Assembly (NCBI GenBank): GCA_001244265.2
Contig: LN717261.1
Span: 496,001-560,000 of the forward strand
DNA: 64,000 nt
Reading direction: 5' to 3'
From: Microbotryum violaceum
Taxonomy: Eukaryota
Each line of letters begins with the position of its first letter. Position 1 is the first letter of the stretch. The notes below the pieces were generated by a model. It did no database searches. It was not told where the DNA came from and was given only the letters and a program-made list of their open reading frames with translations. Below are positions 1,383-53,418 of the stretch, piece by piece. The position numbers and the translations under genes were made by a program.

Positions 1383-1553
1383 ACCCTTTGCACCGATCCC
1401 GATCCCTGCTACTGAGACTTGCGCCTGTTTTAAGAAGAGCTTGGTGTCAATATCTCAATATCTAGTTTAGTTTATGCTTGACGGGGGCAGAAGTGCTGAC
1501 AATTTATTTTAGTGCGGAGAATGCTCTCTGCTTCAAGTTTGAGCACTCACCGT
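1383..1553 (+). repeat. ~170-bp segment shared with the interior of the KDZ element (54224-54394)
   Basis: ACCCTTTGCACCGATCCCGATC...CTTCAAGTTTGAGCACTCACCGT occurs at both places with about 10 substitutions. Confidence 0.9.
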
Positions 1554-7111: not shown

Positions 7112-10088
7112 CACCTCGGGCAGACATAAAAAATACGCCTCAACAGGCGCGCGCGCAGCGCCCCCTTACGCGCCTTCCAAGTCACTGCCCCAGCGGGGTG
7201 CAGCCTTGCTACCCCAGGGCGCCGACTTGCCCCAGGTTACACCCAACTCTCTGCTTCGAGTCGATTCTGTGTACACACAACACTCTAGCAGCTGCTAGAT
7301 TGATTGGGAAAGTGGGTAGTAGATGCATTCCTTCCTTCATAGCATCTTTCGGATGTCGTCAATGTCACGTGTCCGAAGCGGTCGCGCGGGATTTCGGTCC
7401 CGAGATCGAAGGGTCCGAGCACACGCGTTGGCGGCAGTCGGCAGTCGGCCACGCGCGCCGAGGCCTAGCGGAACATGCGAGGGACCTTCCACTTGACATG
7501 CCGCCTCACCTCGTTGCTTTCGCTACAGCTCATTGTAGCGTCGCCATCGACTGTACAGGCCCCACGGCTCGCGTTCGTCCTCTCGCTCCCTCTCGCTCAT
7601 GCACTTGACTCGGCGTCGCCATGCCGCCGAAGAGAAGATACAAGTCCAAACCGTCGGTCTATCAATTGCAGGTCACCTTCTGTGCCTCCGAGTCGCGGTG
7701 TGCTACGAATGTTGAACGCTTGGCCCAACTAGGGTTCATCTCTTCGACCGCTTCAATGCCGATGACCGCCTTCTCATTTCGACTGGTCGAGCAGGCCCAC
7801 GCGAGCTGGAAGGTCAGCCCCCGCGCTATCACCGGCTATGCGGACGGCCTCAAAGAGTATTACTCCCGTTGTGGGTGGGTCGGGGTCACTATACGGGACA
7901 TCCTTGGGTGAGTTTGGACGCTGCCATCGTCTCATGGGCACATGCTTAAAGCCTGCCTTCCGCGCATACAGGACAAAGACCTTCGGAAGCAACGCGATCG
8001 ACGAGTACCGCGCTCTCGAAACATAGGAGGACAGTGGGGACCTTCTCGCAGGCACCGTCGATTCGTTCTAACAAGTGTCCCGCGTGCTTCGGGCCAACGT
8101 GACTTAATCAACCTTGTCACGACGTCACATTGGATTGCGTGCTTGCATACGACGGCAACTTTCAGCACATGCGTGAGAAAAAATCGAACCACGACCAGAT
8201 TGTTCCGGACACTTTCTTGGGTGAGGAAGAGGTTCAGGCGATGAAGGCCGAGGTTGAAGCTTCGGTGCGGCCGACCAAAAAGGTGAGCAATGCCGCTTTT
8301 TGCATTTGCCTTAATGGGATCGCTTACCTCTACACCCAGCCACCCTCGTAGGCGTGCACAGAGTCGTGGAAGGCTGCCGACGACGGAGCTGCTCCGACCA
8401 CTCAGATCGTACTATGCGCTTGCCATCCTCAAGCACATCTCAGAGCGCCTTCCTGAAAACGCCAAGATCGGAGTCTTATACGACATTGGTTGTAACTTTA
8501 AGCACCATACTGAAAAGGTATGCTTCAATCACGACGCGTCCCTTCCTCCTTAGTCTCGTTGGCACAGACCAAATGTGCCTACTTTCTAATCATTTGTCAC
8601 CAGAGGCAGCTCCTGCCAAAGCTTTTCAAGCGACTGGAGTTCGCCACGAGCGTCTTCCATGCATGCACCCATATCTGGTCCTGCCAAGTCGATTTCAGCC
8701 CCCGCCTCATTTTGAACTTCGGGTTGACTGATGGAGAGGGCTGTGAGCGATTGTTGAGCGGGCTACGGTCGCTCATTCCGAGGAGTAGCAGCTGTGCGCG
8801 CCAAGGATCGAGTCGGTGAGGAGAAAGCGCTGATCGGCGCCGAGGTGCGGCAAGCTTTGGCTTTGATCGAAGATGTAAAGACCTGTATCACTAGTTGCCA
8901 AACACTCTGGACTAACGTGTCGGGTAAGTTTTCGATACAGCGTGCTCCATATAACCTCTTATGTCGCCCTGACATCTTTCAAACTATCCCAACAGATACC
9001 CTTCTTGAATCGATCGACGCAGCTGATGCCAAGTCTATATTCGGCACTGAAGATGTTGAAGAGATCCGAGACCGCGCGCTCATTATACTGGATCGCCGGA
9101 TGGAGCTTCTTCAGCTGCACGAATGTTCTTGGTCCCAGAACGACCATTTTTTCGATGTTTGGCTCGACACTCGCGGGCAGTCAGAGGGCGCTTCCGAGCC
9201 CATGCGTCCTGCACTATCAGAATTTCGTGGTTTACATCAGCGATTGAACGCGACGGGAAGGATTGTCGAGAAGGCGAAACATCACCAACTACCTGCACAT
9301 AATCAATCGAGAACACGCGGTCCTATGGAGACATCTGGCCTCGACGACTCGGTGCGGCCTGCACCGCTGGCCCGTGACGTTCAACAAGTGCGGGTCATTC
9401 AGGCGCAGATGGATATGAGTGACCAGATTCAACTCGCAAAGGAGGTGGGGCCTTTCTCCGCATAACTCCTCGAGCAGGACGGTGAGATGGGCAGCTCTTT
9501 GGGTGAAAGCTACGGCGATGAATTCGCTGGTCAGGAAGACGAATACTTCTCGGGCGTTCAGACCAGCTTCTGATGTAGATTGAATTTGTGGAGCAACTTA
9601 ATGTTGAAATAATGGACATGGTGTTTGCAAACTATAGTCGTCTCAATTGCGGTGGGTGAGAGTAATAACACCGTCTTATAGAAATAAATATTGTCAGACC
9701 TAATCTCTGGGCTGCGCCTGCCTTACTAGGCTCCTGCTGGGTGACTTGCCGGGTGACTTTTCAATTAAAGCGCATGCAATTGCTCGAGTACCTAGAATGT
9801 CTACCACGTGAAAATGGGTGAGGGGGTTTGGTCAATATAGAGAATGTATCTCCTACCCTCAGACAGGGTTGAATAGCAAAGTTGGCATGTGCGTGCAACC
9901 CCTTCTTCCAAACAAGATGGCTCGGCGATTTCCCTTACCAGTGCCGGGTGACTGTCGTCCAATCAAAGCGCATGCAACTGCTCGAGTACAGAATGTCTTC
10001 CACGTGGAAACAAGTGAGTGGATTTGATCAATATAGTGAACCTCCTACCTTCGGACAGGGTTGAATAGCAAAGTTGGCATGTGCATGC
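7112..10088 (+). mobile_element. KDZ-type DNA transposon copy 1 (left TIR plus transposase; right half lost)
   Basis: Starts CACCTCGGGCAGACATAAAA like copy 2 and is near-identical to 50736-~53700. It is cut at 10089 by a Copia LTR and does not resume. Confidence 0.85.
7621..9573 (+). pseudogene. KDZ (Kyakuja-like) transposase, spliced, internally deleted
   Basis: Motifs TAFSFRLVE (CxC1-like region), YDGNFQH, CTESWKAA, YALA..GVLYDIGC, FHACTH..CQ..GLTDGEGCER; acidic tail. Confidence 0.8.
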
Positions 10089-11598
10089 TGTTGGAAGGGA
10101 CTGCGTGAGCAGTAATGGCTAGAAGCGTCTTTGGGGTTTTTGGGTAGTTTAAGCCATTTTGGCCAGGGAGGCGCGGACTGCGTCAGCGGCGGTGCGGAGT
10201 CCTCTTGATTGGTTCCTCACCAATCATTGACTCTGCTATCGACCGTTGACTGAAGTTCGTGTTCTCGTCTCCCTGGACCAAAGATCGCCTCGCACCGAAA
10301 TTTAACTTGGTAGCGTCTGATCAGTTCAACCGTGAGCTTAAATTGTGGTGCACAATCATCGAAAACACAACTGGTCAACAAACCGGAAAAGCACAGCCAA
10401 CGATGTCCAGAAAGGCTGAATCCCTCGAATCCATTGGTCTGCTCACCCGCATCAACTGGCCGGCATGGGCGCCTGCGATGCGTCTTGCGCTGCAGTCAAT
10501 CAGCGCATTCCGCGTCGCAACCGGCGAGCAAAAGAAACCGCCCGCCTCGCAGCCGCCCAATCAGTCGCTCAAGAATTACACGTCCTTATGCAACGACTAC
10601 GATGAAGGACGCTAAAGGGAGGACTTTGATTCGGTCACATGTTGATGAGAACATGTGGTTCAAATTGAAGGGATCCGCCGTCGACGCCAGCTTGCATCCA
10701 GTCTGGACCGGGCTCGTGCGAGCCTACGAGACCAACTCCGTCCCGTTCGTGGGGACCAAAACCCTGCGAGCGTACTGGAACCTTCGCTACGAGCCAGGAA
10801 CGAGCGTTACATCGTTCATGACCGAGGTGGAACGACTCGGTGAACTGTGCCACCGGCAGAAAAAGTCGTTCTGGAAGCAACAGCTTGGGATCGGCACCGA
10901 GGAACTGCAGGGCTTCTACGCCCAGATCATTGACATCCTTGGTGAGGAACGTGGCAAAGCACTTTTGTCGATGGTGCTACACGTCGACGATTTTGCCATC
11001 AAAACCGTTCTCATGGAGCAGCTTCCCGAGAAATACACGTTCGCATTCCGCAAAGAAAAGGACGTCGACTTATTCCTCGAGAAGGTCCGAACCGCTTACG
11101 ATGAAGACGTCATCATGAACGGTGCCAACGACAAGGAGCAAACTGAGGCACCTGCGAGCGCACTCGCCGCGGCTCGCCAAGAGGCCGATCCGGGTCAGGC
11201 ACCGCCTTGCAACGGCAATTGCGCTTGCGGACAGCAACCCCACGCGTTTGCGACAGCTGGTCAGCCCAGGGGCCACGCGGGTCGGAAGCCATAGAAACCA
11301 CCATGGCGATCGACAAGTTCTTGTGGAAGGCGATCATTCTTGCTAGGATTCCCAGAGATATTGCCGAGCGCGTCCAACACCTCGACAACGAGTCGCTCAT
11401 CGACGCCGCTTGCGACCTCTGGAAGGAATGCCTGGATCGCGAGAAAAAGAATGCAAGCACCGCCAAGCCCGAACAGCCCCAAGTGTTTTTGATCACACCG
11501 GGATGCGTGCCGGGATGTTGTTGCCCATCATGCCAGCCCAACCTTTACCCAAAAGTCCTTGCAGCGCAAGCAGTGCAACCACTGGCAGCCAAGAAGAA

Positions 11599-20460
<8,862 letters not shown>

Positions 20461-20709
20461 GAGGTGTTGGAATGGGTTGGTGCAACAGAAGACAATCTTG
20501 TCTGTGAGCACAATGGGAGCCAACTGGGTTGAGGCGGTGATTGTGAGTGAGAGCAAGGCCAGGGATTCTTGGGCTCAGTATTCATTAGAAAGTGTCCAAT
20601 TGGTTATTGCTTAGACGTTGTTAAGCTCCGCGCGCAGAAGCGGCTTAGTTTCTCCCCATCCGCTTCTCAATGTGCTTTTGCTGATCAGGGAGTCGATTTC
20701 CTCAACGTC

Positions 20710-21598
20710 TCCAAGAACTCTATATGATGGTGTTCCTCAAAGTGGGGGAACGGCTCAAGGATTCCTTACGGAGGGGCTCGACGTAAGTGTTCCAGATGTA
20801 GCTGCATGCATTACATGTAATCTGGGTTAGCAGACAAATTCCGATTTGGTTCACCAGGCCACGTATGCTCGCCAGTCAAAAGTGCCGCCCAAGGGGCTGT
20901 CAAGATATCCCTGCACAATTATGTCTGCAACGCCGCTGAGAAATTGTTTGTATGCCCTGCAAGTCTTGTCCTTGGCGTCACGCTGCTCCGCATTGCGGAT
21001 CCTGACAAAAGTAACCTATAGGAGACAGGCGAGGCTTTTCGAATCAGCGCTTAGCATAGGAGATCGTGGTGGTAGTGAATTACTTACTCCGAGGCACCAG
21101 AACATGATATGTTTGTCACAGAAGGCCAGTGAGTTGTCAAGAAAGGTGATCATCAAAGAGAGCGGATCGCGCTGCTTCTTGATTTGGTCGCTACTAGTCT
21201 TGTTCAACTGAACCGAAAACATGGGTTTCAGTCGCATTAACTGTATAGCTTCTGCTATCTTGCCTCGACTCACATGCCCGATATAGTCTGACCTTTCATC
21301 AGCCATGGCAAGAGTGAGCGCCCTCCTAGTGTTTTGACAATATAAGGCAGAGGTTTCTTCGAGTTCGGTCTTAGTCAGTCTAACTTCTCAATGTCTGTTC
21401 AGCTTTAGTGGTAAGAGTTCCACGCTCATTGTTCAAGCGCGCATCCGTGCATTCTAGTCCTGACTCAGCGTCAGCCGATCCTAGCCTCTCAGGAGCGCTC
21501 AGCGTATTTTCCTAGCCTCTCCGGAGCGCTCAGCGTATTCCTAGCGTCCTAGGTCTCTCCGTGAGTTCCTCAGAGCCCTTAGCCTCTCTAGAGGGCAG
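20710..21598 (-). mobile_element. Terminus of an unclassified TIR-like element with subterminal tandem repeats and an unknown spliced ORF
   Basis: Ends GAGGGCAG before TATATA, matching the CTGCCCTC terminus at 26607. CTAGCCTCTC..GAGCGCTCAGCGTATT repeats at 21481-21590. Minus-strand ORF from 21306 with a GTAAGT donor. The left boundary is approximate. Confidence 0.4.
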
Positions 21599-21604
21599 TA
21601 TATA

Positions 21605-21916
21605 CTGCCCACACCGTCAGGCAAGGCACTGGGCAGGCCTGCGCGAGCGCCAGCCTGAATATTCGAAACCAGTATTGAGCTCGGGCCGCCTTGTTTGAGG
21701 CAGGTCTGAGCCGGATGCGGGCGGTGTGGGTCAGCGCGCGAGGCCGGGCCCCTTACTCGCATGTTTTGGCCACAGCCCACTCAACTCACACTCTAGTCGT
21801 AGGCTGGGCTGGCGGTAGCATACTCCTTTGTGGCGATTTTACACCCTCCTTTGCAAGCAGCTTGAGCTGCTCCAGTCCTGTATTCATCGCAACCCGAGTG
21901 CCTTGCCGCTGGTGAG
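21605..21916 (+). repeat. 312-bp inverted-repeat arm (partner 26612-26923)
   Basis: Reverse complement of 26612-26923 with about 4 mismatches; preceded by TATATA. Confidence 0.95.
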
Positions 21917-24900
21917 TGGATTGTTGAGTTTGGCGGGCACCGTGCACGCGTCTGTCCGTGATGAGGTCGCGAACGAACCATAATTGACTTCATTCAGCTG
22001 CGTCTCACCTCTCCACTCTCCTCGCAGATTGAACGAAGAGGGCGCCACGTCTCCCTTGACTTTAACCTCGACAGCCTGCGTCCTGTCGACTCGCACGAAC
22101 GCTATACGATCTCTCTTGATCAACACTGAGTGCGCTTAGAACTTCCTCACGTAACCGTCTTCCGAGCTCTCGGTTGGACCGACGAGCTCTCGTCTCGACC
22201 GATCTCGGCACCGGCGCCACCAAATTCGCACTGGACTCACAGCAATTTCAGACCAAAGCGAAAGAAATGACTCTCAACTCCTCCCCCATTCGTGGCTCGG
22301 CTAGAACCGCGCACTCAGTCCCTGTCACCGATTCGAACGCCGATCGCCGCGACGAATTCGAATGTCGAGAGGACGACGGCGAGCACGCCGAGAGTGAGCG
22401 TGAAGCAAGCGAGGGTGAGGGCAATGAGCAGGACATGGAAAGTCTTGCTGCACGACGTGAGTCTCTTGTCTTATCTATCCTATCCTCGGACTCGGGGCAA
22501 ACCCGGGACTTAGGCGCGAATTTTTACTGACGGTTGCTGCTCGCCGCCCGCCGTCTGGCCGAGATTCCAGTTCAAGCGTCGAATAACGCGATCATCGCCA
22601 GTTGCACTAGCACATTCAACTTGGCGCCCAAGACAGTCAGTGCATACGAAAAATCGCTCAAATCTTACACCAAATTCATGGCTGAAACGTGGCCCGGTGC
22701 TTGCGTTCGACCAATCGACCCAGATATGGTCTTGAATTTTTTGAGCTCCGAGTCCAAGCGACCCGCGCGCAGATCAGGTACGGGTGCCGATCAAGGCGAG
22801 GACATCGAAGGCACGACCATTGGTGTATCGGTGCTCAAGAATGTGAGTGTTATCTCTCGACTGTGGCCTGTGACTGGCCTCTCAGGCACCTAGCGAAGTG
22901 GGCGTCTATGGATCGCGCCATGCCGGCTTCCTCGCCGTTTATAGCATCTCAACGCCCTCGAACATGTAAGCTCGCATGCCTTTCCCTTCGTACCCGCAAT
23001 GAATCTACTCCCTTAACTAACACATGTTGCTTACTTTTGACGTGCCTTCAGTACCGTGTAATCGATTCAATTGATCGCACAAGCGTTGCGGCCCGTGGCA
23101 AGCTGCGAGATTTTCCCCCCATCGGTAATCTCGAGGCCGGCTGGAAGAAACGCGAGGCCGGTCGAAAGAAGTCCGCCCAGACCAACAAATCGAAGGAACG
23201 GCATCCGACAATGTCACCAAAGAAGAACAACTACAAATCAGTGAACACCTTCTTTGCCAGGGGCCGACCGGTAAGCTGACCGCCGTACACTCGGTGACCC
23301 GGTCGCTTCGCAACCGCGCCATGTGGGCAGTCTCTCTCGCCACGCTATTCCGCGGCGACAACACTCGTGCTCTCGCCTTCTCGGATTTGTCAATGCGAGC
23401 GCTCGAACGACCGGATCACCCGCCGATCAAGACGCTCTACATCGTCGCCGATTCGGGCAAGACGAACAAGGAAGGTCGTCTCGACTACAAGCCCGTTGCC
23501 CGTCATTTCGACCCTCGTATTTGCAATGTCGGCGCGGTCGCCTTCTATATGTGGTTCCGCGATGCGCACACTGGAGGACTCCCATATGGTTCGTTCGAGC
23601 CAGACTTCTCTAAAGGCAGCTCGAAATACGGGTATCGAGAATGGTACAACGTGCCCCTTTTCCCAAGCGCATTTAGCGGCGACGCACAGCTGCAGCTAAT
23701 CTCCTACTCGGGTGAGTCGGCACTATTGGTGCCTGATCGAAGGCAAGAGCTGGCAGTTAGCTCGACTTGCTGAGATCGGTCGGTCGCTGACTGAAATCTT
23801 TGCTCGTCTTCGCTCATGTCTGCGATGGGGATGGGATTTTCAACTCCGCCATCTTCTTCGTCTAGGTCACAACGTTGCCGTTTCGACGTTCCTCAAGGAG
23901 TGTGATGTGCATTCTAGTCACACGACTCATCTCAGTCGCATTGCTGGTGCCCAAATGTCGGCGGAGAGAGGCGCGAATGAAGCCGACACGAAGGCTCTTG
24001 GCGGCTGGAGCGATGGCACCTTCCGCAGCGTCTACCAACATGGCGATCCGACCACCTCCTTCATCGCCCTCGCCGGTTTCAATGGAAAGTTTCCAGAGAG
24101 GTACTACGTGGCTCGTGATATCGAGGCTGGTATGTCTACTCCTTCATCGAGCTTTTCGGTCTGGCAATATTGACCTCTCCGTCCCGTCGCTCTCCCAGAT
24201 GTGCCTGACGATCTTCAACGACTTATCTTCCCATGGGTCGAAGCCGCTTTGGCTGAGTTTGAGGAACGCTTTGAGGCCGACGAGCTCTGTCAAGACAAGG
24301 CGTTGGTCGATCACCTGAAGCTGCTCCAATGGTTCCGACTCGTCATCCTTCAAGATGCGGCGTTTTTGATTTCAGCCTATCCAGATGCACCGATTTTCCA
24401 AGCGCCCCTGTTTCAGTCGGACCGATTTCGAACGTGGGCTTCGCATTTTGTGGCCAGTGTGGAGGGGAATGGCCGCGAAGAAACCGCCCTCAAAGTGGTG
24501 TACGGCGGCCTCCTTGATTCCATCATCGACAGGCTTAGCGCCCAGCAATCCTCGGAGCGCCAATCTGCGACTGCTCACCTTCGCAGCGATAATCATCGAA
24601 TCCTGGAGCTTCTCATCGAACAGCAGAATCAAGGCGGTCACTTTCACGGTCATGTAAGGAAGCGACGACGACCTGAATATGTCCGCGACTTCGATGACTT
24701 CGATGACGATTCCGACGACGACCGTCGTGATTTGTCGAATGCGCACATGTCTGCGCCTACAAGTACGTATCTGCTACGTTCTGCGTGCATCAACTAGTGC
24801 TACTACTACCCAATACTCACTTGTCTTTCCTTTGTATTAGGATATCGAGATACTAGCCGGAGGTCGCACCCACTGCAATCGCCTTCGTCCCCGGTCTTAG

Positions 24901-26545
24901 CTTCGCCCTCGTCGTCTCGAGGAGTACCGGCACCCGGGGCCCATTCCCCCGCCTCGCCGTCCCGGTCTGCCAGTTTCCGAACCCCGTCTTCCCGATCGAC
25001 GAGTTTCCGAACCTCGCCAACCCACCCAGCGATATCTCATACGGCCATGCGCGCAGCTGTCCTACCAGCCGCCGCGGGCAATCGATCGGATCGCATGCGT
25101 GTTGGCCGATCGCTGGCGTACGGACTACCGTCCCATCATGCGACCATGGACGCTCTCTTGCGACCTCCAGCAGGCGACCAGTTGGAGGATGTTGGCCACC
25201 TGCTCGCCGAATACCGACGGGTCAAGCAGAGAAATCCTACATATGTCGATCCGCGAGTCGACGCGCTGGGCCTCGATGATCTTGCCCGGTTCCCCGGCAC
25301 GCTCATAGAATGGAACAGCACCATCACACCCCCCGGATGGCTTCCCGTCGTTAAGTTCAATCCTGCTACGAATGTGGAGGATGTGTATCTCCTCTACGAA
25401 ACGGGTGTGGCAAAGGATGGTGATCGGCGAAACCCCTCGATGCCTTGGCGCGAAATGGAGCGCCGCTTCGGAACTCGCTGGCGCGGTGCGCCAGGTCAAA
25501 CCGCACCCGGTGTCGAATGGACTCGCATAAACAGGGTCCTGAAGTTCATCAACGAGGCCGTGGAAGGAGTTCCATCCTCGACACGGTACCTTACAGCAAC
25601 GAAGTGAGCTCGTTGTGGCAAGCATCAAGACGGCGCTTGCCCCCGCGGACTTCGCAAGGTACCGAAAGTTCTACGAGCACATGCAGAAGAAGGACACGCG
25701 CGAAGTCAATGGAGCGCAACTCAACAACTACGATGCTCTCAAATTGGCGGTCCGAGTCCAGTATCAATAGTGTATGGTGGAGTTGGGCATATTCACATCC
25801 ACAACATGCATCGAGGCTGGCACTTGGTTCGCTTCCGTCGGGGGGCATCGGCCCCTCGCCGATCTGTTCATCTGTTCGACCTCATCTCGCCCCAGCCCTC
25901 CGTTGTTTCTGTTCTTCTGAACCTTCTCTGTCTCTCTTCATCTGTACCCTCTACATTCGGCTGCACTCTGTCGCATTCCGTCCATCGCATTTGTTTATTA
26001 CACGACTCGTGATCCGTTCTGACCTCCCCCCGTTCGCTTCGTTCCCCGGAGCTTCACTCGGTGGCTTCCGGCTCCACTGCCGGAGGCACCTCTTCGGCCC
26101 TACTTTTAATTTCTCTTCTTTAGCCTTCCTTGCGAATGCATCTTCAGTCACTGTCATTTCGTTCGTAAAAATCTTTGCTTGCTCAAGTCAAAATAAGGCC
26201 GGCCTTACAAAACCTCGCGATCTGCGCGAGCTGACGCGGCACCTCATTTTTATTTTGGCCGGAACGAAATTGAGCGAGTATCAAGTCGAGGAGGTGCATA
26301 TAATACACTGATCCCTGTGGAGTACCCTAGATATTAGCCCTCTTTACGAACATAAACCCGTACTCTACATAATCTACTCCATGCCATAGACTTCTCCATC
26401 TGCATTACCCATCGCATATCTCGAGAGGAATTCTCGCTCCGGCGCTTTGAACCAGACCGAGTCTGAATAAATCACATTAGCAGGCTACCCTGCTCGACGT
26501 GATCAGATGTATCCAACATCGAGGATCCTCAACCACGTGGTTTGT
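21916..26545 (+). mobile_element. CryptonF-like tyrosine-recombinase DNA transposon (core boundaries tentative)
   Basis: Contains the YR/GCR1_C gene. Imperfect short direct repeat GTGGATTGT (21916-21924) and GTGGTTTGT (26537-26545) lies at the junctions with the flanking repeats. Confidence 0.6.
22267..25770 (+). CDS. CryptonF-type tyrosine recombinase (NDC10_II-like) with C-terminal GCR1_C-like domain; multi-exon, two apparent 1-nt indels
   Basis: Catalytic set present: LFRGDN (R), GKTN (K), THLSR (HxxR), LGGW (W), FRSVY (Y). Also RH.DPRIC.VGA, LIFPW and VILQDAA. C-terminal NVEDVYLLYETG..PWREMERRFGTRWR. Frame changes near 23195 and 25580. Confidence 0.88.
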
Positions 26546-26602
26546 CTCGTTCTAGAATGTTCTTTGTCTCGACGACGTTTTTTATTCTTTAAGTTTTAAG
26601 GA
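26533..26602 (-). repeat. Inverted copy of the Helitron-like 5' end (partner 26928-27005)
   Basis: Reverse complement TCCTTAAAACTTAAAGAAT..AGACAAACCACGTGG matches 26928-27005 apart from an 8-bp duplication and one substitution. Confidence 0.9.
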
Positions 26603-26606
26603 TATA

Positions 26607-26923
26607 CTGCCCTCACCAGCGGCAAGGCACTCGGGTTGCGATGAATACAGGACTGGAGCAGCTCGAGCTGCTTGCAAAGGAGGGTGTAAAATCGCCACAA
26701 AGGAGTATGCTACCGCCAGCCCAGCCTACGACTAGAGTGTGAGTTGAGTGGGCTGCGGCCAAAACATGCGAGTAAGGGGCCCGGCCTCGCGCGCTGACCC
26801 ACACCGCCCGCATCCGGCTCAGACCCGCCTCAAACAAGGCGGCCCGAGCTCAATACTGGTTTCGAATATTCAGGCTGGCGCTCGCGCAGGCCTGCCCAGT
26901 GCCTTGCCTGACGGTGTTGGCAG
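26607..26923 (-). mobile_element. MITE-like unit with ~28-bp imperfect TIRs, flanked by TATA on both sides
   Basis: CTGCCCTCACCAGCGGCAAGGCACT ... AGTGCCTTGCCTGACGGTGTTGGCAG; TATA at 26603-26606 and 26924-26927. Confidence 0.75.
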
Positions 26924-26927
26924 TATA

Positions 26928-27036
26928 TCCTTAAAACTTAAAGAATTAAAGAATAAAAAACGTCTTCGAGACAAAGAACATTCTAGAACGAGACAAACCA
27001 CGTGGCGTGACGTCATGGCGCGCTTCACCCCACTAG
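26928..27036 (+). mobile_element. Mini Helitron-like element (109 bp)
   Basis: A|TC start, AT-rich 5' end, GC-rich imperfect palindrome near the 3' end, CTAG|T finish. Confidence 0.55.
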
Positions 27037-27058
27037 TCCTACTATATATATATATATA

Positions 27059-30000
27059 TCCTTAAAACTTATAAAATAAAAAACGTCCTGAGACATAGAC
27101 AAACCACGTTGCATGACGTCATAGCAGCTCTCGGCCCAGCGTCCCAGCTAGCTAGGGCTGTTTCAGACCGTTTCGCCTACGTTCGCCTACGTTCGTCGAG
27201 CTTCCATTGAATAGCACGTGACCCTCTGTGTCTCGAAGCAGACTGTTTTGCGTGTCTACCACGTCAACATCAAAGAACGTCAGAGAACGGGAGACAAACC
27301 AGGTGGCGACAGACCGTTCCGTCCACGTTCGCCGAGGTTCCAACGTTCGTCGAGGTTCCATTTCCCATCAAAGCAGCTGGGCACGTGACCCTCTGCTTCG
27401 GGCTTCACTTCACAATGTTCCGCAGCCTTCCGCGACATTCTATGAGTCCGGTTTAAACTGAGGCGCAGGCTTCTCCATCTTTCTCCCTCCTGCTCTTCAC
27501 ACCTTACCCATCGCACCTCATCCCGTCGCCACCTCAAGCTTCCGACATCCGAAGCGGTTGCCGTGGAAGCTCTGCAACGAATACGGAATCAAGAAATGGC
27601 TGCAAGCAACATAGCTACGAATTCGAGTAAGTAACTTCATGGATTGTGCTCTTGCTGTGTTGTTTAGAAGCTAATGGAAAACTACCAAGCAGGAATTCCC
27701 TTTAACACATCCTCTTCGAATGTCAACGCTCGAGTTGTTTCTTCACCGCCAGCTGGTGACACGCATACATGAGTCATCCCTTGACATGGCTGTGCAGTCT
27801 TAGATATGACGGAAAAACTGACACCAAAAACAGACATTGAACGTCAGTGAGACAGCGGAAGGATTGACTTCGTACGGTTGAGAATCCGGGTCATTGGCAC
27901 ACTAAATGTGAGTCTTTACTGCCCTTGCTAGAGATGGACAACAGCAAGAATAATGATAGTTGCACAACGTCTCGGAGGTCTGAAGGCCAGCAACGACGAA
28001 GGCTCGAGCGAGAGCGTTCCGGTCCGGTCCCACACAGTTTTTCGCCGAACCCTGCCTCTACCGCATCAACATCGACGGATCATTTTATTTCCAGAAGATT
28101 TAGGGCACAACAATTGCGGAGACTCCGGGAAAGGCAGCAAATTTGATTCTATCAATCAATCGCCTCCACCTCAGCCAACGCCCAACGTCCCCTCTGTCCC
28201 GGTGGATGTCGCCGCACAGTCAGCAATTGCACTGCTTCCACTGCCGTAAAATCGACTTCATCCAATGGATCCACCACCTGTGAACGTTGCGATCTCTCGA
28301 AGGTCTCAAGATCAGCAAAGACGTCGTCAACAGGAAAGCCTTGAGCGAGAGCGTTCCGTTCCGGTCCTGCACAGTTCTCTGCCCGACCCTCCCCTTTGCC
28401 AAACCACGACGAATCAGTCCATTTTTTTATTTTTATTTAGAAACTGTTCATCATATTGCCCCCAATCCATGTTCCCCCTATTTGGCCTACGGAAAAAACT
28501 AGATGGAAGTCGACGATGATAACACAAACCGCCCGCAAGATGCGAGAAACGGGCCGGTGTCCACCAATCCGATACTTGGGATTCAAGTGCCCGAGCCAAG
28601 CGGTTGCTCCCCCCAGGAGACGAATGAGAGAGAGAAGAAGAGAGAGAGAGAAAGAGAAAGAGTACAAAAATAATTGACTAACGACAAGATTTTTTTATTT
28701 TTTTTGACTGGGGCTCATAAATTGCAATCCTTCGGGTTGGCTGGGACCGCTACAAAAAGAGCTCAAGGAGGTTATAAAGCAACGACGGCAAGCAGTTGGG
28801 TGAAAGTCAAACCCCTGCGCGCAAAGAGCGCTGCGCAGATCAAAACCCGCCGAGCACCTAACGCGGACTCCAACGGGCGGTGAGTACTGCTGCCGCTTCA
28901 CGTCCCAAGAGCGGGAGCAAAGATACTCGAAAACCAGGCAAGAACGCCTAGAGAAAGAAGGGGAGAGTATACAGAAATTCACAACTGGGGATACGGAGAA
29001 CCAGGAATACTAAGACAGAGAGGAGGGGAACACACCCGAGGGGCCAAGGGAGGGGTCGAAGCCGGAGGTAGAGGTCCCCAGGGACTAACAGGCCGCAGCC
29101 AAGCCCCAGCTACTCGTCACCCCGACAGCGCCTGATGTCCTCCCTTGGCTAAATCTTGAGTGCTGGCTGTTGAGCCGTCGGGGCCGAGAGAAAAGCGATC
29201 CAGTACAACGAAACGAGCCTCGCCTTGACGCGAGAATATTGACCAGAAACGAGCGACCTTCCTTCCCGAGCCATGCCGTAGATCTTGACCAACGCGAACG
29301 AACGAACCATTCAACGGAACCCAACACACGGCTTAGGAGTAAAAGGAGAAGTGGCTGAAGCGTAGTCAACAACCGAGCAACAGGAACGAGAAGAGGCAGG
29401 GAAGGGAAAAAGGGGGGAAAGGAGAGGGAAAAACTTCACAAAGCCTCCAACGCAAAGACAATCGACCTGGCTTGCCGATCCATCCAAGAACAAAAAACCG
29501 CTACTGCGCAAAGTAGAGAGAGAGAGGGAGAGGTGCGCAGCCTTCCACTGCGCAACAAGTTCCAAGACAGTCAGCTTCTAAGACCCACCTCCAGGAGATC
29601 AGAAGATAGATGAAAGCAGCGTAGAACCGTAGCCATCTGCAACTGCTGATTCTCAATGTGAGGTCGCGCCGAACCTAGTTTCAATAGGTAAAGGTCGGCA
29701 GTTCGGATCCCGGTGGGTCATTTTTGAAGGATGCTATTTTGCCAGCCGCGGAGAAAAGCCCGAGCAGGACCGGCGCAATGTGTAGCCCTTGGGCCGACCT
29801 AGTTATTTTGATCTCTAATGGCCGTGACGAATGAATGAATGAACGGTGGGGCCATTAGAGATTCATCTAACCATGCTTAGAGTGTCTCTAAGTCTGGTGG
29901 TGGCGGGTGTAAGGCTCGGTTGCCTTACGCTATTTGGCTACCCTTCTGATTTCAATATGCATCTATTGAAATCGTCAGTCTTTTGGACCGTGTAACCTAG
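27059..30000 (+). mobile_element. Non-autonomous Helitron-like element with a decayed spliced ORF
   Basis: Same 5' end family as 26928, after a (TA)n run. Ends CTAG|T at 30000 with upstream hairpins. Internal repeated SRRS.xQQRRR..RER motifs; no Rep or helicase motifs seen. Confidence 0.45.
28558..29569 (-). mobile_element. ~1-kb solo-LTR-like insertion
   Basis: TGTC...GACA termini. Flanks GCCGG and GTCAG could be a TSD decayed by two transitions. The host SRRSE motif resumes after it. Confidence 0.4.
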
Positions 30001-30024
30001 TCGTGAAGGGCCTGGGGTATTACA

Positions 30025-30620
30025 GCCAGGCAGGTGTTGCATGAGAAGTCTACACACTCAAAGTCACTATAGGGCCAATCCAAACCCTCCACCTGGCCAG
30101 AGGCCGCCAGTTTTTTAAGTGTCTGGACAGAGACGTGGCCATAGCGGTGGTGAAGGGTAAGTAAAGGTAGCCTAGTGGACTTGGTGGAGACGAGCGAGGG
30201 TAGCGCACCTTTGCTGCCAGCGTGGACTGAAGCGTTGAGTTTGTAAACGTGGGACACGATGGCTGATGCTGTGGCAACGCACCCTTGCGGCGTGCAGAGC
30301 TCGATGTGTCCGTGTTCGAAGGTGATGCGAACACCTTTGCTGTCGAAGGCCCGGACCGAGATGAGGTTGGTTGGGCTCTTGGGAGCGTAGATCACGTTGT
30401 TGAGGGTGAACTTGGTACCAGCATCGGAGACGAGCTTGACCGAGCCGATTCCCGAGGCCCTCACCGTTCCCCCTAGACCTTGCAGGACTTGCTGGGTAGG
30501 TGAAAGGGGACCGTCAAAGAAGGACACATTGTTGACAATGTGGCGCGCCAACGCCGAGTCCAGCAGAAGGATGTCAGGTTGTCCGATGTTGACAAACGTG
30601 GCAGAAGAAAAGTAGGACAA
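30025..30620 (-). pseudogene. Copia pol fragment (protease and GAG-pre-integrase)
   Basis: [20 protein letters not shown]...[18 protein letters not shown]. Confidence 0.85.
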
Positions 30621-30622
30621 GT

Positions 30623-33600
30623 TATCACGAAGGACAAAGATAGGAGGAACGAGCCGGACGAAGGGGCTCGAGACGAGGGGCGAGGGACGAGGGACAAGTC
30701 GAGAGAGGTTCTAGGGACTTCTCAAGAGAGACGAGGACGAGGGACGAGTGCAAGGATGTGACCTTTGACGAGATTCGAGTTGCAGAAGGGAAAGAGAGAA
30801 GTAAGCTACGGAAAGGGGAACTAGACCAGAGGAGTCGGGGACGAGGTGACGAGCTTGAGGAGGCGAGGCACGAGGATCACGTAATAGTGTTGAGGCTGAG
30901 GATCACGTAATAGAGCTTGGTTGATGATCACGTAAGAGTCGGGGCGAGAGGGTTCTGAGTGTGTAGTTGGAGGAGAAGAAAGCAGTGCAGGTGCCGAAGC
31001 GGGGAGAGGAGGTCCGAGGCGCGGGAAGGCCGAGGTCACGCGGATGACGAGAGTGCTGAGAGGCCGAACTCGGAGTGGCGAGCTTCCATTCGTGACAGTA
31101 CCCCCGGGTTAAGCGTCGAGCTACGCGAGATGTTGGATACGGTCGGCGCCAGGCTTGCGAGGTTTCGAGCGATGAAAGTCGAAAACGAGAGCATCGTCAT
31201 CATCAAAACCGGGAACGTATATCTTGTGGTGTTGTAGGAGGAAGCCATCTTGAAGTGCAAAGTCGGGGTGAAGCGAGGCGTCACGATTGAGATCGTTGAT
31301 GACGCAAAGAGATGCCGGATCATGAAGAAGGCGAGACTTGATCAAGTCAGCGATCTCTGAGGAGGGTGAAAAGGTGGCGGAGATAGAGGATGGACGTAAA
31401 AGCACTACACCGGGTTGTTCACAAGCTTTCCCCCCCGCGGCAAAGTCGGGACGCCGAGAGAGCGCGTCGGCCTTGTTGTTTTGAGCGCCGGGTCGGTACT
31501 TGATGATGTAGTTGAGGTGATTGACCGTTTCGGACCAGCGAGCTTGGCGACCAGTGAGCACTTTGGTCGTCTGGAAGTACTGAAGCGCGTTGTGGTCCGT
31601 GAGGATCGTGATTGGGTGGTGAACTCCTTCGAGGTAGTGTCGCCAAAGTTTCATGCAGGCAACAATGGCGAGGAGTTCCTTGTCGTGGATCTCGTAATTT
31701 TGCTCGGCAGGGGTCATCTTGCGAGAGAAGAACGCAACAGGACGAAGCTGAGAATCGACTGACTGGGAGAGGATTGCGCTGATGGCATAATCAGACGCAT
31801 CGGACTCGATGACGCAGGGAAGCGAAGGTTCGTAGTGACGAAGGACGATGTCGGACGCGAAGAGCGACTTGAGGCGATTGAAGGTGGCGAGGGCCAAGGA
31901 GTCAAAGTCGAAGACGGCACCCTTCTTGAGAAGACGAGTGAGAGGCGAGATGATGCGAGAGTAGCCTTGAATAAAACGCCGGTAGAAGTTGGCGAAGCCG
32001 AGGAACTGTTGCAACTCCTTGAGCGTGGTAAGAGCTGGCCAGGAAGTGATGGAGTCCACCTTCGAAGGAGACATCGAGACACCGTCGGGCGAAATGATGA
32101 AGCCGAGGTACTCAGTCGAGGTCTGGTGGAACTCACACTTCTTCGGGTTGCAGTAGATTCGATTGTCGATGAGGCGACGAAGGACTTCTTGTACATGAAC
32201 GACATGGTCGGAAGGCGAATCCGAGAAGATGAGGATGTCGTCGAGGTAAACGAGCACCGTGACGTCGAGGAGGTCGCGGAAGATGCTGTTCATCAAGTGT
32301 TGAAAGGCAGCAGGGGCGTTAGTGAGACCGAATGGCATGACGAGGCATTCGAAGTGACCGTAGCGTGTGCGAAACGCGGTCTTCCATTCGTCTCCCCCTT
32401 TGATGCGAACGAGGTTGTAGCCGGAGCGCAGATCGAGCTTGGTGAAGATCTTGGCCAAACGAAGTCGGTCGAGCGCCTCCGGGATCAAGGGCAAGGGATA
32501 TCGATTCTTGAGGGTGACCGCGTTGAGTCCCCGGTAATCGACACAGAGGCAGAGCGACCCATCTTTCTTGCGAACAAAGAGAATAGGAGCGCCCGCTGGC
32601 GAAGTCGACGGGCGGATGAACCCCTTCGAGAGGTTCTCGTCGATCCAAGTCGAGAGTGCCTGAAGCTCCTTTTCGGACAGAGGGTAGAGAGGGCCGAAAG
32701 GAGGTTGCTTGCCGTCTTCTATCTCGATGGCGAGATCGAAGGGTCGATGAGGCGGGAGAGTGTCGGCCTGCGCTTTGGAGAAAGCCTGGAGAAGGTGGTG
32801 ATACTCCGAAGGAAGCGCAGATCGCAAGTCATCGAGGTATTCGGCAGAATCAGGTGGACCCACAGGGAAGACTGACGGGGAGGCTTCCTCTGAGGTCGAG
32901 AACAAGTACGAGTGCGCTGGATCGCGATTGATCAGGCCAAGGTAGGGCTCATTGACCAGACTTTGGTCGAAGGCGTCGGAGGAAACGAGGGCGACGTCCA
33001 GAGCGAGGTCGGGCGCCGAATGTACGAGTGGGAGGCCCTGAAAGCTGACATCAACTGAGGTTGGATGTCCAAGAGCGCATTGAGAGCACAAGAAAGTGAG
33101 TGTATTGTCTGCCCAATTGATAGAGGGATTGAAGAGACGTAACCATGGGGTGCCGAGCACCAGCGGGTAGGTACCCAACTGCGTGACATCGGCCTGAATG
33201 ACATGAGAGTGTCCTCCGAGCGTGATCGTGAGGCGAACGAAGTGGGTGACGTGGCCGGACGCAATGGGGCGGCCGTCGATGACGAAGAGTGGGATTGGAG
33301 TCGAGTGGGGGCGGCGGACGAGGCCATGACGAGACACGAAAGAGTCGTCAATGAACAACGAGGTCGCACCTGAGTCGATGAGGGTCGAGCCTGAGATCGG
33401 AGGTTCCAGGCAGAAGTCGAGGGGTAGGACGAGATGATCGAAAGGTTGTGTGTCGAGTGTGGATGCCAGAGTGATGTAAACCGGTGAAGGAGGTGACCGA
33501 GCGATGCCGTGCGCGTGTGTGATGTCCTCGTGCGTACACGAGGGCAGAGGACGCTCTAGTTTTTCGAAGTGCTAGAGGGGGCAGCGGCATCTGTGATGGA

Positions 33601-33850
33601 GAAAGTGGCGTTGCCAGCACGACGTCCTGGATACTTCCTTGGAGCGGCGGGGCAAGAGCTGACCTGGTGGCCACCTTCACCGCAGTAAAGGCAGAGGTTG
33701 TTCTTGAGACGTTGTTCGCGTTCTTGAGGGGTGAGAGGAGCCCTGCGAGTGGTCGTGGCGTCGACGTCCATGGGAGTGGGGCCCTGGGTCGTGCCGTTCG
33801 TGGTGACGCGGGTCGGCGGCGAAGCCGAGTTGCCGCGTTGCTGAGAGTGT
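30623..33850 (-). mobile_element. Ty3/Gypsy fragment: gag knuckle, protease, RT, RNase H; integrase deleted; 3' LTR 30623-31097
   Basis: [73 protein letters not shown] follows a G-run. Confidence 0.9.
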
Positions 33851-33879
33851 TGTGAGTGAGGCTTGGCGGTCGCCTTCGC

Positions 33880-36076
<2,197 letters not shown>

Positions 36077-36079
36077 TAA

Positions 36080-43018
<6,939 letters not shown>

Positions 43019-43225: not shown

Positions 43226-43562
43226 TGTTGTGGATTTCGACTTGGAGTACCAATGAATGAATGAAGATTCGCTGTAGCTACACGGCGTTGATAGATGACC
43301 TATTGTGAGATAGAGTATCGCCAAGGTCAATCAACTTGTAGCAGGCAAATGGGCAAGATAGATATCGAGTGTGTGTTAAAGAAGAAGGAGAGAGTGAACA
43401 AGACCAGAGCCTTAGATAGTATCAGCGTGAAAGCCACCTGTGAGTCCAATCAATACGCCACACCGCCATCTGCCTCCATCCGGTGCCGCGCCATGCGCGC
43501 GCCAACTTCCCAATGCCACAAGTCCCTCTGGACTGCCGACCCTTTACTAATTTCCCACAACA
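43226..43562. mobile_element. Solo LTR (337 bp), TSD CACGC
   Basis: TGTTGTGG..CCACAACA termini; CACGC at 43221-43225 and 43563-43567. Confidence 0.85.
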
Positions 43563-53244: not shown

Positions 53245-53418
53245 TGTAGATTGAATTAGTGGAGCAACTTAATGTTGAAACAATGGACATGGTGTTTGCA
53301 AACTATAGTCGTCTCAAATGCGGTGGGTGAGAGTAATAACACCGTCTTATAGAAAGAAATATTGTCAGACCTAATCTCTGGGCTGCGCCTGCCTTACTAG
53401 GCTCCTGCTGGGTGACTT

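What the first reader, a model, noticed from the sequence alone, without database searches (positions are those of the whole stretch)
21593..27005. Tyrosine-recombinase (CryptonF-like) gene enclosed by 312-bp inverted repeats with TATA at both outer ends
Seen: the YR gene with all catalytic positions (R, K, HxxR, W, Y) and a GCR1_C-like tail lies between 21605-21916 and its reverse complement 26612-26923 (about 4 mismatches). TATA lies just outside each arm, giving a 5.3-kb unit. Known: fungal Cryptons are described with only short terminal direct repeats, not long TIRs, and YRs acting on inverted sites invert DNA. Inference: this is either a composite transposon in which two MITE-like ends carry a YR gene, or a YR element with long inverted ends that might flip or excise. 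Coincidental nesting of two MITE copies remains possible.
Basis: partly seen in the sequence, partly recalled or inferred. Interest (0 to 1): 0.8.

Follow-up and report, generated by a model that had tools for sequence, protein, structure and literature searches.

The report
Crypton transposon flanked by inverted MITEs
A tyrosine-recombinase (Crypton) transposon copy of the anther-smut fungus Microbotryum sits between two inverted copies of a small 317-bp mobile unit, and this looks like two separate elements lying together, not a new kind of transposon with long inverted ends.

Summary
Arms 21605-21916 and 26612-26923 differ at 4 of 312 bases, TATA lies outside each, and a CryptonF-type recombinase gene lies between them.

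The arms are not simple ends. Each is a copy of a self-contained 317-bp unit with its own terminal inverted repeats of about 29 nt. The right copy (26607-26923) is complete and has TATA on both sides. Removing it restores a 152-nt palindrome, so it inserted where it now lies. The right edge of the "5.3-kb unit" is therefore not the edge of something that arrived whole. The left copy lacks its last 5 bases.

A Microbotryum saponariae gene model (P0002) starts inside the same arm, upstream of its own copy of the gene. The left arm has therefore been linked to the recombinase gene for a long time.

The window gene is MVLG_05909 plus MVLG_05910. It keeps the catalytic residues but has two 1-base frame breaks.

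Best reading: a CryptonF copy plus two MITE copies, composite in form only. I could not search any fungal genome DNA, so copy numbers and true ends remain untested. Interest is modest.

The parts
21601..21604 (.). TATA just outside the left arm
   Evidence: Read directly. The bases further left (21479-21600) are a local tandem repeat of about 31 bp, not part of the unit.
21605..21916 (+). Left arm. It is a copy of the 317-bp MITE-like unit with its 'A' end (CTGCCCACACC...) facing out, and it lacks the last 5 nt (GGCAG) of its inner 'B' end.
   Evidence: It differs at 4 of 312 bases from the reverse complement of the right copy. Residues 5-50 of the M. saponariae model P0002 are a translation of 21783-21917 (76% identity, E 1.3e-15).
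21917..22266 (+). 5' leader between the arm and the start codon
   Evidence: P0002 residues 49-89 match 22167-22286. P0154 residues 20-29 match 22130-22159. P0002's model splices CCGCTG|GTGAGT at 21913|21914 to about 22167.
22267..25770 (+). CryptonF-type tyrosine-recombinase gene (MVLG_05909 plus MVLG_05910), read through several introns, with 1-nt frame breaks at 23189/23190 and at 25578
   Evidence: Pfam NDC10_II and Phage_int_SAM_1. Catalytic R, K, HxxR, W and Y are present. Exon matches to P0001, P0160, P0003 and P0161. The first three GT..AG introns were read directly at 22457-22569, 22843-22944 and 22966-23051.
25771..26532 (+). 3' region of unknown extent. The true right end of the Crypton was not located.
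   Evidence: No Pfam family on its open frames. The ends of the interior share no repeat beyond chance.
26533..26606 (.). Inner arm (H') of a TA-centred palindrome, ending in TATA at 26603-26606
   Evidence: 74-nt inverted repeat with 26932-27005, 91% complementary. Palindrome reconstruction. Hairpin fold, z = -15.2.
26607..26923 (-). Right arm. It is a complete 317-bp MITE-like unit with inverted ends of about 29 nt and TATA on both sides.
   Evidence: No coding capacity was detected. No Rfam family or tRNA.
26924..27005 (.). TATA (26924-26927) and the outer arm (H) of the palindrome. A further direct copy of H follows at 27055-27125, after a (TA) run.

Best explanation
The window holds one copy of a CryptonF-type DNA transposon of Microbotryum, and two copies of a separate, non-coding 317-bp element flank it.

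**The transposon.** It consists of a tyrosine-recombinase gene with a SAM-like N-domain, an Ndc10-type catalytic domain and a divergent GCR1_C-like tail.

**The 317-bp unit.** It has its own inverted ends of about 29 nt and is flanked by TA or TATA. That is the signature of a MITE moved in trans by a TA-targeting cut-and-paste transposase (inferred).

**Left copy.** It is old. It sits at the head of the gene's 5' leader, has lost the last 5 nt of its inner end, and is inherited together with the recombinase gene. It may supply the promoter or first exon (inferred).

**Right copy.** It is a later, separate insertion made in place, into the TA centre of an older 150-nt palindrome about 0.85 kb downstream of the gene.

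**The pair.** Together they look like a 5.3-kb element with 312-bp inverted ends and TATA outside. That unit did not arrive here as one piece, and nothing shows it has ever moved as one.

**The recombinase.** When intact, it is expected to move the Crypton through a circular intermediate and short matching sites, as described for other CryptonF elements, and not through the arms (inferred from the literature). This copy has two frame breaks and is probably not autonomous.
For: 1. **The unit is self-contained.** It has its own inverted ends (24 of 30 aligned columns), and the complete right copy has TATA on both sides.
2. **The right copy inserted in place.** Its flanks 26533-26606 and 26932-27005 are a 74-nt inverted repeat. 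Deleting the copy and one TATA leaves a 152-nt sequence that matches its own reverse complement in 142 of 160 columns. The region folds as one long hairpin, z = -15.2, with 0 of 100 shuffles as stable.
3. **The left copy lacks GGCAG at its inner end**.
4. **The left arm and the gene are linked in another species.** P0002 (M. saponariae C57g00317) residues 5-50 translate 21783-21917 and then splice to the 5' leader.
5. **Coding sequence is better conserved than the arm.** Between P0002 and the window, the translated arm plus leader is 66 of 87 identical, against 343 of 365 in coding exons (Fisher p = 3e-6). Selection therefore acted on the recombinase while the arm stayed attached.
6. **The gene family is CryptonF-like.** Pfam gives NDC10_II (E 7e-32 for P0001). 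The catalytic residues are kept. Distant relatives carry GCR1_C in 8 of 8 cases. A profile of the family matches the Ndc10 structures 6gsa and 4aco.
7. **Nothing else is encoded.** No other enzyme domain was found on any open frame tested between the arms.
8. **The family is multi-copy.** M. saponariae models sit on Chr1, 3, 7, 8, 11, 12 and contig C57.
9. **The literature describes no such ends.** CryptonF elements are described with short direct repeats and no inverted ends (PMC3212892, passages). An active CryptonF ends in CACCG and targets CAYCG (PMC9977147, passages).
Against: - Both copies of the unit in 64 kb flank this one gene in inverted orientation. Published counts give only 39 MITE copies of all families in this genome. 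Two independent hits 4.7 kb apart would be unlikely without local hopping or a real link.
- The two arms are 98.7% identical. The left arm differs from the M. saponariae arm by roughly 10% (rough estimate). An old left arm and an unrelated recent right arm should differ more. This needs gene conversion between the arms, or a right copy derived from a Crypton-borne arm.
- The right copy has the 5 nt that the left one lacks, so it was not copied from the left arm as it now stands.
- P0002 is a single gene model and could be the orthologous locus.
- No other genomic copy of the unit or of the Crypton flanks could be examined. The MITE status (dispersed copies, a matching transposase) and the Crypton's true ends are therefore inferred, not shown.
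Confidence: 0.5

Rival explanations
1. True composite transposon. The two outward-facing 'A' ends of the MITE copies are used together by a TA-targeting DDE transposase supplied in trans. The whole 5.3-kb block, recombinase gene included, then moves by cut-and-paste. This would be an in-trans version of MarCry-1_FO.
For: - The outer ends are the same end of the unit in inverted orientation, with TATA outside both.
- The left copy has lost its inner end, so it can no longer move alone.
- There is a precedent. MarCry-1_FO is a Crypton inside 16-bp Mariner inverted ends with TA duplications (PMC3212892, passages).
- The left arm is linked to the gene in M. saponariae.
- MITEs are rare in this genome.
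Against: - The outer flank of the right arm mirrors its inner flank. The right copy therefore inserted here on its own, and the block did not arrive as a unit.
- TATA outside both arms carries no weight, because the complete right copy has TATA on both of its own sides.
- No DDE transposase lies inside the block. None with matching ends lies in the window. The only other element with inverted ends, at 50736-56812, has unrelated ends.
- No second copy of the block is known.
Confidence: 0.18
2. The arms belong to the recombinase element and hold its recombination sites. The enzyme acts on the two inverted copies to flip the 4.7-kb interior, as Flp does on the inverted repeats of the yeast 2-micron plasmid. 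Alternatively it joins the ends GGTG(A/T)GGGCAG-TATA-CTGCCCACACC into a circle, with TATA as the crossover and not a duplication.
For: - If joined, the ends would form 11-nt inverted arms around a TA-rich core. That is the general layout of tyrosine-recombinase sites as summarised in PMC3212892 (passages).
- TATA is a direct repeat at both ends of the complete unit and of the block.
- The near identity of the arms (4 differences in 312) would fit copying or conversion tied to the mechanism.
- Inverted CryptonF copies cause inversions in Chlamydomonas (PMC9977147, passages).
- The left arm is linked to the gene in a second species.
Against: - Described Cryptons have no inverted ends (PMC13465315, passages).
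- The right copy is a complete unit inserted into a palindrome, while the left copy is truncated and not flanked in the same way. The two 'ends' are therefore not equivalent.
- The arms and the interior share no motif of 12 nt or more.
- The recombinase gene of this copy has two frame breaks.
- Inverted ends of 29 nt with TA flanks are typical of transposase-moved MITEs (recalled general knowledge).
Confidence: 0.12
3. Plain coincidence in a transposon-rich region. Both MITE copies inserted independently next to a resident Crypton, and P0002 is simply the orthologous locus that inherited the older left insertion. Neither arm travels with the Crypton.
For: - The window from about 10 to 45 kb is a pile of nested elements: Gypsy at 11595-16855 and at 37841-43015, Copia fragments at 16.8-20.6 kb, 30 kb and 43-45 kb.
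- The right copy clearly inserted in place.
- P0002 is about as far from the other M. saponariae copies (about 95%) as from the window copy (about 94%), and it is itself a degenerate model.
Against: - Coding exons are far better conserved than the arm and leader between P0002 and the window (343/365 against 66/87, p = 3e-6). Two dead orthologous copies decaying in place should not show this.
- MITEs are rare in the published annotation (39 copies).
- The arms are 98.7% identical to each other.
Confidence: 0.15

Closest known systems
CryptonF elements (Crypton-Cn1 of Cryptococcus; CryptonF-1_cRei of Chlamydomonas)
   Same: - A single gene for a tyrosine recombinase with the R, K, HxxR, W and Y signature, an Ndc10-type catalytic domain and a C-terminal region aligned with GCR1_C of relatives.
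- No reverse transcriptase.
- Multi-copy within a genome.
- The gene contains introns.
   Different: - Described CryptonF elements have 4-6-bp direct repeats and no inverted ends (PMC3212892). Here a 312-nt MITE-derived block heads the 5' leader and a second copy lies inverted downstream.
- The GCR1_C match of the Microbotryum protein is below Pfam's cut-off.
- The true ends were not found.
MarCry-1_FO of Fusarium oxysporum (Crypton fused with a Mariner-type transposon)
   Same: A Crypton recombinase gene enclosed by inverted ends with TA-type flanks, so that a DDE transposase rather than the recombinase could move it (PMC3212892, passages).
   Different: - MarCry carries its own DDE transposase and has 16-bp ends, and four copies of more than 97% identity show that it moves.
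- Here no transposase lies inside.
- The ends are whole 312-317-nt MITE copies.
- Only one copy was seen, and its right arm inserted in place.
TA-flanked fungal and plant MITEs (mimp of Fusarium, Stowaway-like elements; names recalled, not tested by any search)
   Same: Small size (317 bp), no coding capacity, inverted ends of about 29 nt, TA or TATA on both sides, and insertion into a TA-rich palindromic site.
   Different: The ends (CTGCCCACACC...) were not compared with any library of known MITEs or transposases. The copy number in the genome is unknown.
DIRS1-type elements (tyrosine-recombinase retrotransposons with inverted terminal repeats)
   Same: A tyrosine recombinase between inverted repeats a few hundred nt long (PMC13465315, passages).
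   Different: No reverse transcriptase, RNase H or methyltransferase domain was found. No internal region complementary to the arms was found. The recombinase is of the Ndc10/CryptonF type.
Yeast 2-micron plasmid FLP and its inverted repeats (recalled)
   Same: A tyrosine-recombinase gene bounded by long inverted repeats, which in the plasmid are flipped by the enzyme.
   Different: The window's locus is chromosomal. No recombination target has been identified in the arms, and the arms are copies of an independently mobile unit. I could not test inversion.

Membership tests
CryptonF (Crypton DNA transposons) | Encodes a tyrosine recombinase with the catalytic R, K, HxxR, W/H and Y residues | tested here: met
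   In the 10-protein alignment, R225, K261 and R362 are invariant and H359, W385 and Y394 nearly so. All are present in P0001, the window's gene model. NDC10_II matches at E 7.4e-32.
CryptonF (Crypton DNA transposons) | C-terminal GCR1_C DNA-binding domain | tested here: inconclusive
   The window piece 25047-25604 scores E 0.0038 and 17.9 bits, under the cut-off of 23. P0001 and P0156 give no hit at E <= 0.01. The 8 distant relatives in the alignment all hit GCR1_C (8 of 10 members, best E 2.4e-13) and align with the Microbotryum tail.
CryptonF (Crypton DNA transposons) | No reverse transcriptase or other transposition enzyme in the element | tested here: met
   No further Pfam family was found on the 7 other open frames tested within 21917-26606, on both strands, or on the pieces scanned.
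CryptonF (Crypton DNA transposons) | Short (4-6 bp) terminal direct repeats and no terminal inverted repeats | tested here: inconclusive
   Only one copy was available. The candidate GTGGwTTGT pair (21916 and 26537) gives 4 matches in the window against 1.1 expected. Three of the four lie in copies of one local repeat unit. The ends of the interior share nothing beyond chance.
CryptonF (Crypton DNA transposons) | Several dispersed copies in a genome | tested here: met
   At the protein level only. M. saponariae gene models lie on Chr1, 3, 7, 8, 11, 12 and contig C57. M. silenes-dioicae has two copies, and M. lychnidis-dioicae has a second diverged fragment.
TA-targeting MITE (non-autonomous element with inverted ends) | Short, non-coding, with terminal inverted repeats | tested here: met
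   317 bp, with ends matching in 24 of 30 aligned columns. No Pfam family. The longest open frame has no protein relatives: 0 of 56 candidates scored, and no candidate at near lengths.
TA-targeting MITE (non-autonomous element with inverted ends) | Target-site duplication (TA or TATA) on both sides | tested here: met
   The right copy has TATA at 26603-26606 and at 26924-26927. The restored site is a perfect local palindrome. The left copy shows TATA only on its outer side, because its inner end is truncated.
TA-targeting MITE (non-autonomous element with inverted ends) | Many dispersed copies with unrelated flanks, and a transposase-encoding partner with the same ends | not testable with these tools
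   There are two copies in the window and no partner in the window. I could search no fungal genome DNA collection.
Composite / MarCry-like transposon | The outside flanks are unrelated to the interior, so the inverted ends mark the limits of the mobile unit | tested here: not met
   The outer flank of the right arm (26932-27005) is the inverted repeat of its inner flank (26533-26606).
Composite / MarCry-like transposon | A DDE transposase encoded inside the unit | tested here: not met
   No DDE or other transposase family was found between the arms.
DIRS-like retrotransposon | Reverse transcriptase and RNase H beside the recombinase, and an internal region complementary to the repeat ends | tested here: not met
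   No RT or RNase H domain lies between the arms. The arm and the interior share no 12-mer.

The most novel reading that the evidence does not exclude
The 317-bp unit may not be a transposase-moved MITE at all. It could be a miniature, non-autonomous Crypton. Under this reading:
- Its joined ends (GGTGAGGGCAG-TATA-CTGCCCACACC) form a classical tyrosine-recombinase core site.
- TATA is the crossover sequence, not a duplication.
- The Microbotryum CryptonF enzyme moves both the small unit and the 5.3-kb block, and can flip the interior between the two inverted copies.

This would be the first Crypton lineage with defined recombination sites, long inverted ends and a non-autonomous derivative.
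Probability: 0.1. Interest if true: 0.7.

Novelty: new member of a known kind. Interest (0 to 1): 0.3.

Why it matters
Cryptons are rare, and their ends are poorly defined. No paper in the searched library links Cryptons with Microbotryum: the search for 'Crypton' plus 'Microbotryum' found 4 papers, none about such an element (listing only). This locus adds a multi-copy CryptonF lineage in anther-smut fungi.

It also shows how a small element with inverted ends can become welded to a recombinase transposon. That produces a structure which automated pipelines would classify as a transposon with terminal inverted repeats. If the block does move as a whole, or if the recombinase does act on the arms, it would be a second, independent case after MarCry-1_FO of a Crypton borrowing cut-and-paste ends. 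It could even give the first defined Crypton recombination site.

As it stands, the structure is most simply two known kinds of element lying together.

Tried and rejected
1. **Arm copy number through proteins.** I translated the longest open frame of the unit (26748-26921) and searched the 5.8-billion-protein set. At longer lengths, 56 candidates were found and none scored. At near lengths there was no candidate. This says nothing about genomic copy number, because the set holds predicted proteins and not six-frame DNA.
2. **GTGGwTTGT as Crypton end repeats.** There are 4 matches against 1.11 expected, and 4 of 100 shuffles reach 4. The matches at 26537, 26993 and 27099 all lie in copies of one local unit. 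The homology of that unit runs 4 nt beyond the motif. I rejected this as evidence.
3. **A remnant of a third unit left of the left arm (GAGGGCAG before TATA).** That stretch is the decayed third copy of a 31-bp local tandem repeat. Rejected.
4. **Shared motifs between the arms and the interior, or between the two ends of the interior.** One 11-mer and no 12-mer were shared. The best local alignments of the ends scored 16-18. Nothing was found.
5. **A transposase partner in the window.** The only other element with inverted ends (50736-56812) has unrelated ends.
6. **RNA genes in or near the arms.** No Rfam family at E <= 0.1 and no tRNA.
7. **Solved structures with the single protein P0001.** No hit. 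The family profile did hit Ndc10.
8. **Unchecked sources.**
   - Genome contigs holds only bacteria and archaea, and I did not scan it.
   - Supplements were closed. Additional file 1 of PMC3212892 (Crypton ends) and the repeat library of PMC4469406 may bear on the ends and on the MITE family.

Full report
**1. The observation.** The inverted repeat is real. The repeat finder reports arms 21597-21916 and 26612-26931, 320 nt and 98% complementary, 4695 nt apart. TATA lies directly outside each arm. The unit occurs only twice in the 64-kb window.

**2. The gene and the organism.**
- Translated pieces between the arms match Phage_int_SAM_1 (22531-22890), NDC10_II (23303-23770 and 24177-24794) and, weakly, GCR1_C (25047-25604).
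- A search with 23129-23770 found 4 proteins at E <= 1e-3 among 1261 candidates, all from Microbotryum.
- The exons of MVLG_05910 (P0001) and MVLG_05909 (P0160) of M. lychnidis-dioicae p1A1 Lamole match the window almost perfectly. The match includes a read-through tail of P0160 that is plain window sequence. The window gene is therefore this pair of split gene models, or an identical copy.
- A whole-library search with 24174-24794 gave 331 relatives at E <= 1e-3, 30 at <= 1e-10 and 3 at <= 1e-30.
- I aligned 8 of the 150 listed relatives, chosen for full length, with P0156 and P0001. R225, K261 and R362 are invariant, and H359, W385 and Y394 nearly so. The window's model has all of them.
- All 8 distant relatives carry Pfam GCR1_C. 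The two Microbotryum proteins do not reach E 0.01, but they align over the same region.
- A profile of the alignment matches Ndc10 (CBF3 subunit A) structures. This fits the published view that Ndc10 derives from CryptonF (PMC3212892, passages).
- No other enzyme domain lies between the arms.

This is a CryptonF-type element.

**3. State of this copy.**
- The first three introns can be read directly as GT..AG: 22457-22569, 22843-22944 and 22966-23051. Further gaps in the protein matches sit at about 23720-23834, 24129-24197 and after 24761.
- Compared with the continuous models of M. silenes-dioicae and M. saponariae, the window is one base short at 23189/23190, in a run of A.
- It has one base too many at 25578. 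There P0161 residues 177 and 178 are separated by one extra nucleotide.
- This explains why the published annotation splits the gene.
- Unless these are sequencing errors, the copy cannot make the full protein.

**4. What the arms are.**
- The right copy runs from 26607 to 26923 (317 bp).
- Its two ends are inverted repeats of each other, CTGCCCTCACCAGCGGCAAGGCACT... against CTGCCAACACCGTCAGGCAAGGCACT..., matching in 24 of 30 aligned columns.
- It has TATA on both sides.
- The left copy has the same outer end and TATA. It stops 5 nt short at its inner end, where GGTGAG is followed by TGGATTG and not by GGCAG-TATA.
- The unit has no Pfam match, no protein relatives for its longest frame, no Rfam family and no tRNA.

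A small non-coding unit with inverted ends and TA or TATA on both sides is the standard picture of a MITE moved in trans by a TA-targeting transposase. This step is inference, because I saw neither dispersed copies nor a partner.

**5. The right arm inserted where it lies.**
- The 74 nt inside it (26533-26606) and the 74 nt outside it (26932-27005) are inverted repeats of each other, 91% complementary.
- Removing the unit and one TATA leaves 152 nt that match their own reverse complement in 142 of 160 columns, centred on AAGGATATATCCTT.
- The whole region folds as one hairpin (z = -15.2).
- A third copy of the same half-unit follows at 27055-27125 after a (TA) run.

If the 5.3-kb block had arrived as a unit, the DNA outside its right end would be unrelated to the DNA inside. 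It is not. TATA outside both arms also carries no weight for a composite, because the unit alone has TATA on both sides.

**6. The left arm is linked to the gene in another species.**
- The M. saponariae model P0002 (C57g00317) begins with 50 residues that translate the arm: 21783-21917, 76% identity, E 1.3e-15.
- It then continues, after a predicted splice at CCGCTG|GTGAGT (21913|21914), in the 5' leader at 22167.
- Between P0002 and the window, the translated arm plus leader is 66 of 87 identical, while coding exons are 343 of 365 identical (Fisher p = 3e-6).
- The recombinase was therefore under purifying selection along the path that separates the two copies. Two dead orthologous copies would not show this, so the arm most likely travels with the gene.
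- The inference is limited. It rests on one gene model and a small sample, and P0002 is about as far from the other M. saponariae copies (about 95%) as from the window copy (about 94%).

**7. What does not fit neatly.**
- The two arms differ by 1.3%. The left arm differs from the M. saponariae arm by about 10%, on a rough conversion of residue identity.
- The right copy has the 5 nt the left one lacks.
- Gene conversion between the arms could explain both facts. So could a right copy derived from another Crypton-borne arm with an intact end. Neither was tested.
- The published annotation counts only 39 MITE copies of all families in this genome, 438 elements with terminal inverted repeats, 57 DIRS and no Crypton class (PMC4469406, Table 2 text). 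Two unrelated hits 4.7 kb apart would therefore be unusual.

For these reasons I keep the composite and integral-end readings alive, at 0.18 and 0.12.

**8. The proposed Crypton end repeats.**
- GTGGwTTGT occurs four times against 1.1 expected.
- The matches at 26537, 26993 and 27099 all sit in copies of the palindrome half-unit.
- That unit's homology extends 4 nt past the motif.
- If the Crypton had inserted into that half-unit, the rest of the half-unit should lie left of 21916. The arm lies there instead.
- The ends of the interior share nothing beyond chance.

The true Crypton ends remain unknown. If the left arm travels with the gene, the left end lies at or beyond 21605.

**9. Comparison with what is known.**
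- Cryptons are described as lacking inverted ends and having 4-6-bp direct repeats that reflect site-specific recombination (PMC3212892, passages; PMC13465315, passages).
- An active CryptonF in Chlamydomonas ends in CACCG, targets CAYCG, excises cleanly, and causes inversions between inverted copies (PMC9977147, passages).
- The one published Crypton inside inverted ends is MarCry-1_FO. It carries its own Mariner transposase and has 16-bp ends and TA duplications.
- The present structure resembles MarCry only in outline.
- No paper in the library links Cryptons to Microbotryum (4 papers listed, none relevant by title or abstract). None of the 10 papers that mention CryptonF appears, by its title or abstract, to describe long inverted ends (listing; passages read in 4 of them).

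**10. Verdict.** The most likely account is a CryptonF copy, probably defective, with an old MITE-derived block at the head of its leader. A second copy of the same MITE inserted later into a palindrome downstream. The element is new for Microbotryum but belongs to known kinds. Searching Microbotryum assemblies for other copies of the unit and of the Crypton with their flanks is the decisive test, and I could not run it here.

Noticed in passing
window 50736-56812 (partial copy at 7112-10088): A 6.1-kb element with 123-bp terminal inverted repeats (CACCTCGGGCAGACAT...) and an exact 8-bp duplication, ACCATTTG, at both flanks. An open frame at 51231-51569 matches the CxC1 cysteine cluster associated with KDZ transposases (E 9e-8). 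The first 3 kb recur at 7112-10088 at 95.6% identity. Inside lie tandem repeats of about 195 bp (53418-54148).
   Followed up: partly
window 22267-25770: The recombinase gene has two single-base frame breaks relative to sister-species gene models: one base missing in an A run at 23189/23190 and one extra base at 25578. This explains why the published annotation splits it into MVLG_05909 and MVLG_05910.
   Followed up: yes
M. silenes-dioicae gene models C011g06666-06669 (proteins P0003 and P0161; no DNA seen): Models 06666 and 06669 are identical (N-terminal part), and 06667 and 06668 are identical (C-terminal part). The gene order N, C, C, N suggests two copies of the Crypton lying tail to tail. 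The centre would fall where the window has its palindrome with the right arm.
   Followed up: no
window 26533-27125: A half-unit of about 75-95 bp occurs three times next to TA runs: inverted at 26533-26606, and direct at 26924-27019 and 27055-27125 (the last after (TA)9). It contains CACGTG and TGACGTCA motifs. Its origin is unknown.
   Followed up: partly
window 21479-21600: Three decaying tandem copies of a 31-bp repeat (TCCTAGCCTCTC.GGAGCGCTCAGCGTATT) lie directly left of the left arm.
   Followed up: partly
window 10000-45000: A dense transposon cluster. It holds a Gypsy element with 238-bp LTRs (11595-11832 and 16618-16855, 97%) and Copia fragments at 16829-20614, 29997-30710 and 43453-44841. 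It also holds Gypsy pol and integrase frames at 31124-35863 and a Gypsy element with 181-bp LTRs (37841-38021 and 42835-43015, 96%). Host genes appear only at the edges: a mitochondrial carrier at 2.3-3.4 kb, an RRM protein at 4.4-5.2 kb, and a Cdc24-like gene at 58-61.5 kb.
   Followed up: partly
window 1383-1553 and 54224-54394: A 171-bp segment is repeated at 94.7% identity. One copy lies near the mitochondrial-carrier gene and the other inside the KDZ-like element.
   Followed up: no
proteins P0005 (MVLG_03281) and P0162 (M. silenes-dioicae C021g09276): A second, more diverged lineage of the same recombinase family (81-85% identical to the window's protein over shared parts). It is present as short gene fragments in both sister species.
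   Followed up: no
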